This document shows positions 9,001-12,000 of a stretch of DNA of 64,000 bases, piece after piece (within the stretch, counting starts at the first letter, position 1; each line of letters begins with the position of its first letter). The stretch is from Fibrobacteria bacterium. GTDB lineage: Bacteria; Fibrobacterota; Chitinivibrionia; Chitinivibrionales; FEN-1185. Position numbers: made by a program. The stretch covers positions 1 to 64,000 of the forward strand of contig JBBIGR010000016.1 in the NCBI GenBank assembly GCA_037447435.1. Direction: 5' to 3'.

Positions 9001-12000
9001 GTATTCAAGTAAGCGTAATATTGTACCACTGCTTTGAAATAGTTTTTAGGCGATCTGTCTTCTTCATCATAACGGAATTCTTTATGTAAAGTGAATTTCA
9101 TTCTTCGGCCTACCTTTTTCCCTTTTATTTGCCTTTCTTAGCGGCGCATCTTCCTTCTTGCAGCGGTAATCTTGCAGCTAACTACCGAAAGTATGCTAGC
9201 AGACTTTCGTCAAAATGACATCTATTATACATATTCGGAATTATAAATCTCAAATTTGAATATCGATGAAAAATTTATTGGATCTTTTTTCCAACTCCAT
9301 TCCTCTTCCCCCAAATAGCCTTGTCTTAACTTAATCTATTACGCAATCTCCACCAAACCCAAACTTCCCTTCCCCTTGTTAATATCGTCCTTCAATACCC
9401 ACAAAGTCAAATAATTCCGCTTATTATACCAAATCAATCTTAAGTGTAATCAAACGTTGATTACACCTTAACTAACGCAATGCCAATGCTTTATGAAAAA
9501 AAGGAAAAATTCGAAAACATGCCGTCGTGGCGAAACGGAAGGGTATATTCAATCAAAATTGTTTTTTTTTAAGTTATTCTTTTTTCCACACGCGAAGGAA
9601 AAAGACTTTTCGAATTTTTCAAAAAAGCCTTCATCGATGCCCAATATAAAAAAGATTGCAAAATTACCTGACAAGAATTGGAATACCAAATCGAGCACTT
9701 GGTGAGCGACTATAAGTAATTCATATTCTTTAGAGAAGGAAGATAAGGGGATCTTCAATATTTGGGCGCTAAGGTGAAAAAGCCGGAGACGCTGACAAAG
9801 AAGAAGTGCAAAGAGAAGATCGGGAGTTTTGGGTAGTCTTATCCTATTGCTTCAAAACATTTGTCAATTTGATTCTTTGTAAATTGAACAATTAGCTTTC
9901 CTAGGTGAAAAACTTCAGTTGAAAATAATTTGGGTTGTTCATTATCAATCTCAAAATTAATTTCAGAGTTATGAATTGCTGATTGGATCTCAAGGGGCAT
10001 TTTCCTAATATCGAAACCACCCTTTATTTTAAAATCTATATAATCTTTGAAGCTAATACATTTTGAAACTTCTTCGGAATTAGGCTTTTCTTGAAAAAAG
10101 TGATAATAAAGCCAAATTTCAAATGATGGATTACTTTGTGCTACAAACCAACTTTTATGTTTATCGTTTTTTTCTTTTACATAAGATTTTAATTCGTTTA
10201 TTTTGTTATCTTCATTCCACCTATCGGTATCTATAACGAACCATACCTCATCTTCATATTCTTTACTTAGTTTGTAAGTAGCATCAATTTCATCATTGCC
10301 AAAAAATCGTGCATTTGCATTATTCTTTAGTTTTTCCGGATCAGTTTTACCGTCTTCACTTGGAATTGGTATTATATCAATATTTGAAGATAAGCCTTGG
10401 AAAAAAATAAAATAATCGACTTCCCTTTTCTGACCTTCGCAAAAAATATAGATTTTTTTAGCGGTTTTAAAAGGTTCAAGCTTCTGATACAATTTATTAC
10501 GAGTTAAGTATCTCATAGGGTTACCAATTTAAATCTTTAAAGTTGGCTAAAAATGGAATTCCTCCATATCTACCATTTAAATATCCTTTTTCAATATCAA
10601 TGGTATTATGAATTTTGAAGTCACTTAAAGAATAAATTTTAGATGATCCATCACAATCTTTTTGAGTGAACCATATTTCATCGGGTCTGATAAATTTCTG
10701 GTCAAGTAAGTTTGATTCGTGGGTTGTAAAAATTAATTGCCCTTTAACATTTTCATCGAGAGCTATTTTAGAAATTATTTCTTTTATTGTAATTGGATGA
10801 ATACTTCTTTCAATTTCATCAATTAAAATTACCTTGTTATTACAAATGATTCCTTGAAAAGCAGGAATATAATCAATTAATCTTTTGGTCCCATCCGATT
10901 CTTGACTTAAATTAAATTCGATATCAACATCATTTAAATTTTTATGACTTGTAATTAGCCTTTTAATCACCATTTCATTATTTTCGTAAACCGCTGTTAT
11001 TTCTTCACCTGTTTCTCCATTAGTAAGTGCTAAATGATTTTTTTGAGAATTTTTTAAATTTTCTAACATGTCTTTTACGAATTGTCCATTCTCTTTATCA
11101 AAAAAATCCTCAGATTTCTTTTTTTCTATTTCAATTTTTGAAATTCCAGTATTTAAACTTGAAATAAAGTTATTAGCAAAGTCTTTTGTATCTGATTCTT
11201 TATCAAAGAGATGTGCAATGCAAATAGGTTTTGAATCTGGTTTAATAATAACTAATGTATTTTTAAACCAATCAAAAGCAAATTGAATACTTTTAAAATC
11301 TTCTGGATATTTTTTACTTAAGAATGTAATTAATAAATCATCTTTTTGAATTAATTTATCAGATAACACTTCTGTGAAGAGTTTTTCCTTATCAGTTTTA
11401 TAATACTCCTTATAAAAAACAATATTTTTTAAACCATCTTCGCAAGTTCTTTCAAAAATCAAAGTGTCTTCATCTTTCGAACTTTCGGCTAAATACTCGT
11501 TTAAAATTTCATTGTGATCAAAAGTCAGAGTATAATAATAAGCTTTTCCGTTAGAAATAAATTCAATCGCAAGTGAAATAGGCAAAGAATAATTTTTATC
11601 ATCAAGTTTAAATTTTAAATCGTCGGAATTTATTATGAGCTTCCCATTTAAAACCATTTTCCTTAATAGAGAAATAGATTTTATCAAGTTGGATTTACCA
11701 GAGCCATTTGCACCATAAATAGCACTATATCGTAAAATCTCAAAATTTCCACTTTTTATTTTATGATGCTCTAGTCTTTGGGTTTTATTCGGGAATAAAT
11801 TAAACTCTGTTTCGGATTTAAAAGAAAAAATGTTTTTGGCAACGAAGCTTATTAACATATTAATACCTTTCCGTGGGAATTTCACGCCAAATCCCAGTTA
11901 AAATAGTATTTTGCATTGCATTAATCAAAATATACAATGGAAACGTGAATTTGACACGGTTAATTGCTATAAATAACAATTGAAATTCTTTTATAAATAG

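What a model noticed while it worked through the whole genome (the two positions that open the first line are those of the whole stretch)
9300..9560. Shared promoter-operator module upstream of eight defence operons
Eight loci of this genome (C16:9300-9560 and 4181-4438, C58:20368-20607, C30:49984-50193, C93:1347-1526, C15:581-754, C2:226293-226469, C26:65497-65635) carry one roughly 180-nt non-coding module that always points at the next operon. Its core is a perfect inverted repeat GTGTAATCAA-N3-TTGATTACAC followed by a TATAAT-type box and a conserved leader. The operons behind it are unrelated to each other; five are recognisably defence-type (cas3 of type I-E CRISPR, BcgI-like RM + Mrr, a GmrSD pair, split DitA-like genes, TcmP/DUF5131) and three are unknown cassettes. 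The genome thus appears to put different immune systems under one operator, i.e. one unknown repressor.
Evidence so far: blastn of the module against the genome gives 8 full copies, 75-93% identical. MAFFT alignment: both 10-nt arms are invariant in 8 of 8 copies while the 3 central bases differ, as expected for the site of a dimeric DNA-binding protein rather than RNA or coding sequence. The module points towards the downstream gene in 8 of 8 copies, 111-425 nt before its start. Downstream genes: Cas3 HD (g02655), N6_Mtase/BcgI-like + Mrr (g03901-04), GmrSD_N x2 (g02868-69), DitA halves by PADLOC (g01972, g01971; call 50), TcmP + DUF5131 (g00410-11). Pattern search: 8 sites in this genome, 0 in 80 other Chitinivibrionales genomes, 0 in metagenome contigs. 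In 4 of the 8 loci (C58, C30, C93, C26) and at a ninth [...]
(Added by a program. Inside this text positions count along the whole contig: contig position 1 is position 1 of the stretch shown here. "Call 12" and the like, gene names such as g00115 and contig names such as C1 are that model's own, and its searches are not shown. The text may have been shortened before it was handed on; [...] marks where a part breaks off. The agent that wrote the report below was given it as the finding of a first reader that could run no searches.)

Follow-up and report, generated by a model that had tools for sequence, protein, structure and literature searches.

The report
Shared promoter-operator before defence operons
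One uncultured Fibrobacterota genome has placed copies of the same 170-base control region, with a perfectly conserved palindrome and two promoter-like sites, in front of eight unrelated anti-phage gene cassettes, which suggests but does not prove that one unknown DNA-binding protein controls them together.

Summary
GTGTAATCAA-N3-TTGATTACAC occurs exactly 8 times in the 5.05-Mb genome. Each copy lies in an ungapped 171-nt module that points at the next operon in 8 of 8 cases.

- **Conservation:** all 20 arm columns are invariant, against 75 of 168 other columns.
- **Downstream genes:** Cas3, a type I/IIG-like methylase with Mrr, two GmrSD/NsnA-like genes, split DitA, PDC-M30 and three unknown cassettes.
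- **Promoters, new here:** the module holds two sigma70-type promoters. P1 is TGnTATAAT, with its -35 inside the palindrome. P2 is TTGACW-18-GATATT, 55 nt downstream, and fits this organism's own consensus.
- **Related copies:** three P2-only copies, one decayed ninth copy and one truncated fragment exist.
- **Evolution:** the copies are mosaic.
- **Distribution:** the module was not found in 80 related genomes or in 185,579 species genomes.
- **RNA reading:** there is no support for an RNA structure.
- **Regulator:** none was identified.
- **Context:** four copies follow a 251-259-aa helical protein gene and 21-bp-phased iterons. That gene family sits beside defence genes in 6 of 16 loci in other genomes.

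Verdict: a real, propagated promoter-operator module. Co-regulation is inferred.

The parts
9467..9546 (-). Module copy A, upstream part U (80 nt, T-tract rich, conserved in 8 copies)
   Evidence: Ungapped 8-way alignment; a U-only fragment at C3:87000-87055
9444..9466 (.). Copy A palindrome GTGTAATCAA-N3-TTGATTACAC (arms 9444-9453 and 9457-9466)
9423..9450 (-). Copy A promoter-like site P1: -35 ATTACA (9450-9445, inside the palindrome arm), 16 nt, TG-extended -10 TATAAT (9428-9423); predicted start about 9416
   Evidence: Scan of the twin copy B (10 of 12, TG present), shifted by +5120 with no indel; -10 box kept loosely in 8 of 8 and exactly in 6 of 8
9381..9410 (-). Copy A promoter-like site P2: -35 TTGACT (9410-9405), 18 nt, -10 GATATT (9386-9381); predicted start about 9374
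   Evidence: TATTTGAC and GATATT are the longest invariant runs outside the palindrome; organism consensus; 11 copies genome-wide
9102..9375 (-). Copy A long leader shared only with copy B and C58; holds a third promoter-like site and the palindrome CGAAAGT..ACTTTCG at 9186-9209
   Evidence: one compensatory C:G to G:C change between copies
4607..9101 (-). Cassette 1 behind copy A: 223-aa zinc-ribbon-like protein (8430-9101), split DitA-like pair (7462-8271, 6663-7469; the latter also DUF5677), 368-aa (4792-5898) and 64-aa ORFs
9560..9838 (+). Decayed 3' fragment of an NTase-HEPN gene (family of about 10 copies), abutting the distal end of copy A on the other strand
4347..4426 (-). Module copy B, upstream part U
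4324..4346 (.). Copy B palindrome
4303..4330 (-). Copy B P1 (ATTACA-16-TATAAT, TG before the -10)
4261..4290 (-). Copy B P2 (TTGACT-18-GATATT)
3900..4255 (-). Copy B long leader, with the perfect 28-nt palindrome at 4064-4091
   Evidence: sub-threshold Rfam matches only
396..3899 (-). Cassette 2 behind copy B: 106-, 184- and 235-aa unknowns, DUF3010 (1502-1912), Ser/Thr kinase like PD-T4-6/mad6 (396-1505)
4433..4496 (+). Last 64 nt of an NTase-HEPN gene, abutting the distal end of copy B
9839..11885 (-). AbiLi/AbiLii (AAA_21 + RloB) pair upstream of copy A, same strand, without a module of its own
12082..12921 (-). DUF6261 gene at the head of the island, distantly like the 251-259-aa genes that precede four other module copies

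Best explanation
The module is a transplantable transcription-control region that acts as DNA. It carries two tandem sigma70-type promoters that read into the downstream cassette. P1 is an extended -10 promoter whose -35 region lies inside the right arm of the palindrome. P2 (TTGACW-18-GATATT) lies 55 bp further on. The 23-25-bp palindrome is the binding site of one sequence-specific, probably dimeric, DNA-binding protein encoded elsewhere. Bound there, it would sit at -39 of P1 and exclude RNA polymerase, which is the repressor reading and is favoured about 60:40. Alternatively it would sit at -81 of P2 and act as an upstream activator. Because eight otherwise unrelated cassettes carry the same site in the same register, they would switch together, forming a defence regulon. 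The module spread by duplication and recombination together with, or in front of, newly acquired cassettes. Shown: the anatomy, its conservation pattern, orientation, promoter fit and gene content. Inferred: promoter activity, protein binding, the sign of regulation and co-expression.
For: The arms are invariant in 8 of 8 copies while the centre varies and only 75 of 168 other columns are invariant. There is no indel in 171 nt among copies that are 64-95% identical, so all spacings are kept. After the two arms, the longest invariant runs are TATTTGAC and GATATT, which are exactly P2's two hexamers. This organism's own promoters are TTGACA-N17-TATATT: tRNA upstream regions; strand-asymmetric hexamers TATATT 465 vs 259 and TTGACA 109 vs 58 in 1771 upstream regions; TAnnnT follows TTGAC at spacer 17 in 45 of 225 sites, against 4-5 of about 220 at spacers 14-16, 20 and 21. 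The generic scan finds P1 (10 of 12, TG) and P2 (9 of 12) on the gene-facing strand and none on the other strand inside the module. Orientation is towards the next gene in 8 of 8. P2 alone recurs at 3 further loci, so the parts are separable. In the one decayed copy (C8) the palindrome has 2 mismatches and the spacings have shifted, and the next gene is a secreted beta-lactamase-like protein, not a defence gene. The palindrome is the commonest perfect palindrome in the genome, and lone half-sites are not enriched (11 besides the 16 in the palindromes, expectation by my own arithmetic about 18). There is no RNA-structure support.
Against: No regulator was found. No gene with a recognised transcription-factor DNA-binding domain was found next to any copy; the nearest thing is a GMT-like wHTH region in the C2 methyltransferase-like protein. 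The only WYL protein (C47) has a different palindrome before its own gene. The only XRE-M78 protein (C28) heads its own MazF-like pair, with another repeat. No palindrome copy lies before an obvious regulator gene, so the usual autoregulation clue is missing. There are no transcript data, and promoter scans are consensus matches only. P2 lies downstream of the palindrome, so repression at P1 alone would not silence the operons if P2 is active. All copies are in one genome and are related by descent, and gene conversion between copies (mosaicism) could help to keep a 23-bp core identical. Three downstream cassettes have no known function.
Confidence: 0.55

Rival explanations
1. This is a propagated ('mobile') promoter without a dedicated common regulator. 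The module is a promoter cassette copied by recombination in front of incoming cassettes. The palindrome is kept for a DNA-level reason other than regulation, such as a recombination or gene-conversion hot spot, a recombinase site or an insulator, or simply by conversion between copies.
For: Mosaic copies: C15 and C2 are 89% identical in the 76 nt upstream of the palindrome but 64-67% downstream of it; C58 and C93 are 92% in the P2 part and 72-76% elsewhere. Truncated or partial derivatives exist: U-only at C3 and P2-only at C44, C28 and C6. The C2 copy lies in a 4.4-kb insertion between genes that lie only about 630-790 nt apart in 3 of 4 sister species with matches. Both window copies abut differently truncated NTase-HEPN gene remnants. 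The module is absent from 80 related genomes. Homologous promoters before unrelated genes are a described class (PMC3575422, main text read).
Against: There are no terminal inverted repeats beyond a 7-nt CCCTTCC/GGAAGGG match in some copies, and no target duplications or sharp end-points; homology fades gradually downstream. No recombinase, integrase or transposase lies next to the copies. A 3-nt centre is short for a tyrosine-recombinase core (recalled knowledge). Conversion alone does not explain why the variable centre is flanked by two invariant arms, or why the promoter hexamers are the next most conserved blocks. Orientation is 8 of 8 towards genes.
Confidence: 0.2
2. The palindrome is bound by one of the 251-259-aa helical proteins whose genes, followed by 21-bp-phased iteron arrays, precede four of the eight copies. 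The module would then be the promoter end of a larger platform (gene, iterons, module) that recruits and controls defence cassettes.
For: Paralogues lie upstream, on the same strand, at C58, C30, C93 and C26, and at the P2-only loci C44 and C6. Each is followed by a hairpin and about 400 nt of short repeats spaced at multiples of 21 nt. The C58/C30/C3 repeat TGTAACA and the C44 repeat TGTAAATGAAC share TGTAA with the palindrome arm (my comparison by eye). In 16 loci of other genomes of the order, 20-21-nt-period arrays follow the gene in 4 of 6 examined, and recognised defence genes lie within about 8 kb in 6 of 16.
Against: The AlphaFold model (pLDDT 82) is a helical bundle with no significant match: Foldseek found none at E <= 0.001, and the best VIA Z of 8.0 is in the range of generic helical hits. 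No DNA-binding domain is recognised. Four module copies have no such gene nearby. The paralogues differ greatly (25-91% identity) while the palindrome is identical. C58 and C44 proteins are 90-91% identical but their repeats differ.
Confidence: 0.12
3. This is an RNA-level element. The palindrome is a stem-loop, or the conserved stretch a short leader peptide, in a 5' leader transcribed from further upstream, acting in processing, attenuation or translation control.
For: A perfect 10-11-bp stem with a variable 3-nt loop would also give invariant arms. In the P2 stretch one frame reads TTG-ACN... = M-T-[LF]-x-V-[LV]-x-D-D-I in 8 of 8 module copies, with some synonymous changes. The long leader of C16a, C16b and C58 has a second hairpin with one compensatory change.
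Against: RNAalifold finds only the invariant hairpin, with a covariation term of -0.34 kcal/mol and 2 of 32 pairs compensatory. There is no Rfam match inside the module and no T-run after the hairpin on either strand. The frame is closed just upstream in C58, C93 and C2. The only start is a TTG 5-6 nt after the predicted P1 start. The C6 copy changes a conserved D to Y, and the peptides end at different places. The conserved letters coincide with promoter hexamers.
Confidence: 0.08

Closest known systems
Putative mobile promoters (Matus-Garcia, Nijveen and van Passel 2012; PMC3575422, main text read)
   Same: Highly similar non-coding sequence upstream of non-homologous genes within one genome, not tied to a known mobile element. 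Several pairs here pass their threshold (at least 80% over at least 50 nt).
   Different: Most of their families are pairs. This one has 8 full and 5 partial or decayed copies (C8, C44, C28, C6, C3), down to 64% identity. It carries an internally far better conserved palindrome. The full copies stand before defence-type or unknown cassettes.
BrxR/CapW-type WYL regulators of defence systems (PMC9122601, PMC9122589, PMC11662680: search listing and start of abstracts only)
   Same: A DNA-binding regulator acting at repeats in the promoters of many different defence systems.
   Different: There the regulator gene sits beside each system it controls. Here no regulator gene is adjacent. The genome's single WYL gene (C47) has another palindrome, TGCGACAA-N3-TTGTCGCA, before itself.
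RptR repressor of a restriction-modification/DarTG island (PMC12255303, abstract and outline read)
   Same: A small repressor bound at repeated sites in the promoter of a defence island.
   Different: The RptR site is a 6-bp TAGCTA palindrome within three direct repeats, is linked to Type I RM, and has the regulator encoded in the island. Here one 23-bp palindrome stands at eight unlinked loci.
Integron platform (Pc promoter plus attI, cassettes with attC; recalled knowledge, no paper read)
   Same: A standard promoter serves interchangeable, often defence, cassettes. In the window two cassettes lie head to tail.
   Different: Each cassette has its own promoter copy. No integrase and no attC-like sites were seen. 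Homology fades rather than ending at a crossover point.
Promoter-bearing miniature elements (Correia, ERIC, REPIN; named in PMC3575422)
   Same: Short repeated intergenic DNA that can supply promoters.
   Different: No terminal inverted repeats or target duplications, only 8 copies, and strict orientation towards genes.

Membership tests
Sigma70-type promoter | -35 and -10 hexamers at 16-18 nt that fit the organism's own consensus | tested here: met
   Consensus TTGACA-N17-TATATT derived. P2 is TTGACW-18-GATATT and P1 is ATTACA-16-TGnTATAAT. The P2 hexamers are invariant in 8 of 8 module copies and also in the 3 P2-only copies.
Sigma70-type promoter | Transcription starts 6-8 nt after the -10 | not testable with these tools
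   No RNA holder listed; only contigs could be laid.
Palindromic transcription-factor operator | Dyad symmetry with arms conserved more than the spacer and flanks, at a fixed distance from the promoter | tested here: met
   20 of 20 arm columns invariant, centre variable, 75 of 168 other columns invariant, no indels.
Palindromic transcription-factor operator | A cognate DNA-binding protein, usually with a site before its own gene | tested here: inconclusive
   No candidate found among neighbours, WYL or XRE-M78. Eleven HTH_3 matches were listed; only the C28 one was examined.
Putative mobile promoter (PMP) | At least 80% identity over at least 50 nt upstream of genes whose coding parts are not homologous | tested here: met
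   In the 168 non-palindrome columns, C16a/C16b (95%), C16a/C58 (82%) and C16b/C30 (81%) pass; the other pairs are 64-79%. By blastn five copies are 81-98% identical to the window copy. Downstream proteins are unrelated.
MITE/REP-type element | Terminal inverted repeats, target duplication, many copies in either orientation | tested here: not met
   Only a 7-nt end match in some copies, no duplication seen, 8 copies all facing genes.
Integron cassette array | Integrase gene, attI, and attC at each cassette end | tested here: not met
   No integrase beside any copy. The repeat lies at the 5' side with promoters. The attC consensus was compared by eye only.
WYL (BrxR/CapW) defence regulation | wHTH-WYL gene next to the regulated system | tested here: not met
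   One WYL match in the genome, on C47, not near any module.
Described RNA family or riboswitch | Match to an Rfam model, or covariation support for a structure | tested here: not met
   3 sub-threshold Rfam matches, none in the module; covariation term -0.34.
Intrinsic terminator | GC-rich hairpin followed by a T-run | tested here: not met
   The stem is AT-rich and no T-run follows on either strand. The terminator scan of 3800-4700 found 1 site, outside the module.

The most novel reading that the evidence does not exclude
This lineage builds its immune repertoire on a standard plug-in control platform. Newly acquired defence cassettes are placed behind a common promoter-operator module, so one master regulator switches CRISPR interference (cas3), restriction, GmrSD, DitA-like and unknown systems together. 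The module would be the promoter end of a wider, undescribed platform found across Chitinivibrionales: a 250-270-aa helical protein gene followed by 21-bp-phased iteron arrays that marks and controls defence hot spots.
Probability: 0.2. Interest if true: 0.8.

Novelty: new variant of a known kind. Interest (0 to 1): 0.55.

Why it matters
Regulation of anti-phage systems is known mostly as a local regulator encoded beside each system. A single operator shared by eight unlinked, mechanistically different systems would be a genome-wide immune regulon. It would also show how horizontally acquired cassettes get wired into host control at once, by arriving behind, or capturing, a standard promoter.

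The three unknown cassettes behind the same module become candidate defence systems by association. So does the 251-259-aa gene and iteron platform that precedes four of the copies.

The value is limited because the organism is an uncultured subsurface metagenome bin, the module is so far confined to one genome, and nothing has been measured.

Tried and rejected
- **Expression:** no RNA holder was listed for the stretch. The three DNA runs are kept as contigs and showed only the paralogous copies, with no usable joints or inversions.
- **RNA families and structure:** Rfam gave nothing in the module. RNAalifold gave only the invariant hairpin.
- **Short ORFs:** two readings were considered and set aside. 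One is M-T-L-x-V-L-x-D-D-I on the gene-facing strand. The other is M-P-S-W-R on the other strand (by eye), which has ATG or GTG in 8 of 8 but differs in C26 (V-P-S-F-R) and diverges after five residues. Both coincide with conserved DNA blocks and neither has a consistent stop.
- **Wider searches for the module:**
  - 80 other genomes of the order gave only 20-39-nt matches, in 5 genomes, at E 7.6e-4 to 9e-3.
  - The palindrome pattern in 185,579 species genomes gave 1 hit, in a Clostridia bin, at about chance expectation. It lies just after a TATAAT but in an unrelated context.
  - A degenerate P2 pattern in metagenome contigs gave 2 loci from one unrelated sequence.
- **Regulator hunt:** I checked the neighbours' Pfam domains, WYL and XRE-M78. 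None fits.
- **The 259-aa protein:**
  - The Atlas gave only unnamed clusters.
  - Foldseek and VIA gave no meaningful match.
  - No relative turned up in viral contigs by the close-relative method. An alignment query was not accepted.
- **Unknown cassette proteins:** nothing at E <= 1 in Pfam beyond noise.
- **CRISPR link:** a CRISPR-repeat origin for the palindrome was tested by looking for arrays; none is assembled in this genome.
- **Other sigma factors:** sigma54 and ECF-type promoter readings of the module were checked by eye only and did not fit.
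Full report
**1. Observation**

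The window is contig C16, positions 1-64000, of a 5.05-Mb, 96-contig genome.

- The pattern GTGTAATCAA-N3-TTGATTACAC occurs at 4324-4346 and 9444-9466. None of 100 shuffles gave a match.
Allowing up to 4 substitutions adds only one more, C8:139901, with 2 mismatches.
- blastn finds 8 full copies of the surrounding module. They align without a gap over 171 nt (window 9376-9546, minus strand).
- Pairwise identity outside the palindrome is 64-95%. Only 75 of 168 such columns are invariant, while all 20 arm columns are. That gives P about 1e-7 if columns behaved alike.
- The base before the left arm is G in 8 of 8. The base after the right arm is C in 6 of 8. The centre takes 5 forms.
- This is the commonest of 1537 perfect palindromes in the genome.

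**2. Orientation and genes**

Read on the window's minus strand, the order is: 80 conserved nt (U), the palindrome, 15 nt, TATAAT, 12 nt, TTGACW, 18 nt, GATATT. Similarity then fades. In 8 of 8 copies this direction faces the next gene on the same strand.

| Copy | Genes behind it |
|---|---|
| C26 | Cas3 HD (Cas3e best); the contig ends there |
| C58 | type I/IIG-like methylase, S subunit, Mrr (PDC-S02), PDC-S19 |
| C30 | two GmrSD_N/NsnA-like genes |
| C2 | PDC-M30A/B (wHTH methyltransferase-like plus DUF5131) |
| Window copy A | 223-aa protein, then DitA-like halves (7462-8271; 6663-7469) |
| Window copy B | three unknowns, DUF3010, and a kinase like PD-T4-6/mad6 |
| C93 | 213 + 175 aa, unknown |
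| C15 | about 83-105 aa, unknown |

**3. Promoters**

The organism's own promoter consensus was derived first.

- tRNA upstream regions show TTGACA, about 17 nt, then TAT(A/T/C)TT.
- In 1771 upstream regions, TATATT (465 vs 259 on the other strand) and TTGACA (109 vs 58) are strand-asymmetric, next to AGGAGG.
- After TTGAC, a TAnnnT hexamer follows at spacer 17 in 45 of 225 sites, at 18 in 20 of 223 and at 19 in 18 of 221. At spacers 14-16, 20 and 21 it follows in only 4-5 of about 220.

Against this consensus the module holds two sites.

- **P2** is TTGAC(T/A), 18 nt, GATATT. Its two hexamers sit inside the longest invariant runs outside the palindrome, TATTTGAC and GATATT.
- **P1** is a TG-extended TATAAT, exact in 6 of 8 copies and an A2/T6 hexamer in place in the other two. 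Its -35 position falls in the right arm of the palindrome (ATTACA, 16 nt, TATAAT, 10 of 12).

No promoter-like site lies on the opposite strand within the module.

With starts 7 nt after each -10, the palindrome centre is at -39 of P1 and -81 of P2. These are my counts. Conservation stops a few bases after P2's predicted start.

Predicted 5' leaders from P2 are 20-355 nt. C16a, C16b and C58 share a further leader of about 230 nt. It has a third promoter-like site and a 24-28-nt palindrome that shows one compensatory C:G to G:C change.

**4. Not RNA, not coding**

- Rfam has nothing in the module.
- RNAalifold returns the invariant hairpin only, with a covariation term of -0.34 kcal/mol.
- No T-run follows the hairpin.
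- A short frame over P2 (M-T-L-x-V-L-x-D-D-I) is closed just upstream in three copies, would start at a TTG 5-6 nt from the P1 start, and changes in the C6 copy. I read it as a by-product of conserved promoter DNA.

**5. Family history**

- **P2-only copies:** C44:29478-29516, C28:63221-63259 (before a KilA-N/PDC-S22 gene) and C6:1670-1708.
- **Ninth, decayed module:** at C8, with 2 mismatches in one arm and both spacings shifted. It lies before a secreted beta-lactamase-like gene.
- **U-only fragment:** at C3.
- **Mosaicism:** C15 and C2 are 89% alike in U but 64-67% after the palindrome. C58 and C93 are 92% alike in P2 but 72-76% elsewhere.
- **Insertion at C2:** the copy lies in a 4.4-kb insertion between a 924-aa gene and a pseudouridine synthase gene. 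These lie only about 630-790 nt apart in 3 of the 4 sister species with matches; the fourth has another 5-kb insert.
- **Junctions in the window:** both window copies abut, on the other strand, differently truncated 3' remnants of a 287-aa NTase-HEPN gene family.
- **Distribution:** the module was not found in 80 other genomes of the order. Only 20-39-nt matches, at E >= 7.6e-4, turned up in 5 of them. The palindrome has one chance-level hit in 185,579 species genomes.

So the module has been copied, recombined and sometimes broken. This is the behaviour described for 'putative mobile promoters' (PMC3575422).

**6. Context**

At C58, C30, C93 and C26, and at C44 and C6, a paralogous 251-259-aa gene lies upstream on the same strand.

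- It is followed by a hairpin and about 400 nt of short repeats spaced at multiples of 21 nt: TGTAACA at C58, C30 and C3; TGTAAATGAAC at C44; CATGGAA at C6; and a 50-nt tandem at C26.
- The family is patchy in the order (14 of 81 genomes, G000 included) and is often found in tandem pairs.
- In 4 of 6 regions examined in other genomes, arrays with a 20-21-nt period follow the genes.
- In 6 of 16 loci, recognised defence genes lie within about 8 kb: type I-E and I-F cas genes, type II and IIG restriction, Mrr with PDC-S05, and Septu. Four of the six are on the same strand as the helical-protein gene.
- The protein models as a helical bundle (pLDDT 82) with no meaningful structural or family match.

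This may be a larger platform of which the module is the promoter end. It remains a lead.

**7. Regulator**

None was identified.

- No gene with a recognised transcription-factor DNA-binding domain lies next to a copy; the nearest thing is a GMT-like wHTH region in the C2 methyltransferase-like protein.
- The single WYL gene (C47) has its own palindrome, TGCGACAA-N3-TTGTCGCA.
- The single XRE-M78 gene (C28) heads a MazF-like pair and has another repeat.
- Lone half-sites are not enriched.

**8. Verdict**

- The feature is real and acts as DNA. It is best read as a propagated promoter-operator module (0.55).
- The sign of regulation and the binder are open.
- The main rival is a mobile promoter whose palindrome serves recombination or is kept by conversion (0.2).
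- Compared with known defence regulators (BrxR/CapW, RptR), which are encoded beside the system they control, this would be a trans-acting regulon spread by copying the cis element. That makes it a new variant of a known kind.
- There is no expression evidence of any sort.

Noticed in passing
L001:9052-9831 (C58), L002:6773-7552 (C30), L003:3100-3873 (C93), L006:10099-10854 (C26), L027 (C44:28205-28978), L026:297-1055 (C6); relatives in L064-L079: A family of 251-270-aa all-helical proteins of unknown function, often in tandem pairs. Each gene is followed by arrays of short repeats phased at 20-21 nt. Recognised defence genes lie nearby in 6 of 16 loci of other Chitinivibrionales genomes. This may be an undescribed marker or regulator of defence hot spots.
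   Followed up: partly
window 9560-9838 and 4433-4496 (+ strand): Truncated 3' remnants of a 287-aa NTase-HEPN fusion gene family (about 10 copies, many near contig ends) abut the distal end of both window modules. The orphan last 64-85 nt of this gene also recur at C28 (two places) and C17.
   Followed up: partly
window 4064-4091 and 9186-9209; C58:20698-20723: A second, 24-28-nt palindrome (CCGAAAGTATGCTAGCATACTTTCGG type) in the long leader shared by three loci. It lies just after another promoter-like site (TTGAGA-18-CATAAT) and shows one compensatory C:G to G:C change between copies.
   Followed up: partly
C8:139890-139995 (L007): A decayed ninth module. The palindrome has 2 mismatches, P2 is retuned to a 17-nt spacer with AATATT, and a secreted beta-lactamase-like gene follows after a block of GC-rich repeats. 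A DUF6261 gene lies upstream.
   Followed up: partly
window 6380-6520 and 2095-2230; C30:53569-53689: A GC-rich element of about 100 nt with hairpins lies inside both window cassettes and after the C30 GmrSD pair. It belongs to the largest intergenic repeat family of the genome (36 regions).
   Followed up: no
window 13532, 15595, 48837; also C2:225316: A perfect palindrome AGAGACGTAGCG/CGCTACGTCTCT recurs 7 times in the genome, three of them in this window and one in the C2 island. It looks REP-like.
   Followed up: no
window about 13797 (- strand): A tRNA-Asn gene lies just beyond the DUF6261 gene that heads the island (window 1-12921). This fits a tRNA-linked genomic island; no integrase was seen on the contig side examined.
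   Followed up: no
C47:3243-4313 (L063): The only WYL-domain protein of the genome has the palindrome TGCGACAA-N3-TTGTCGCA just before its own -10 box. It is a candidate autoregulated BrxR/CapW-like regulator, unrelated to the module.
   Followed up: partly
C28:2126-4255: The only HTH_3 plus Peptidase_M78 fusion gene (404 aa) is followed by a MazF/PemK-like ORF (read by eye). After that comes sequence 91% identical to window 4433-4607, the stretch that flanks module copy B.
   Followed up: partly
L003:37-1208 (C93): Read by eye, the two ORFs behind the C93 copy (213 and 175 aa) look like the two halves of one P-loop helicase-like gene broken at the Walker A region. No family match was obtained.
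   Followed up: no
L060:2990-3025 (Clostridia bin): The only other genome with the exact palindrome has it 6 nt after a TATAAT box, in an operator-like position. No regulator gene is adjacent, so this is probably chance.
   Followed up: partly
L026:1813-2292 (C6): The ORF behind the P2-only copy on C6 resembles an IS200-like or REP-associated tyrosine transposase by eye. The Pfam Y1_Tnp match is only E 0.21.
   Followed up: partly
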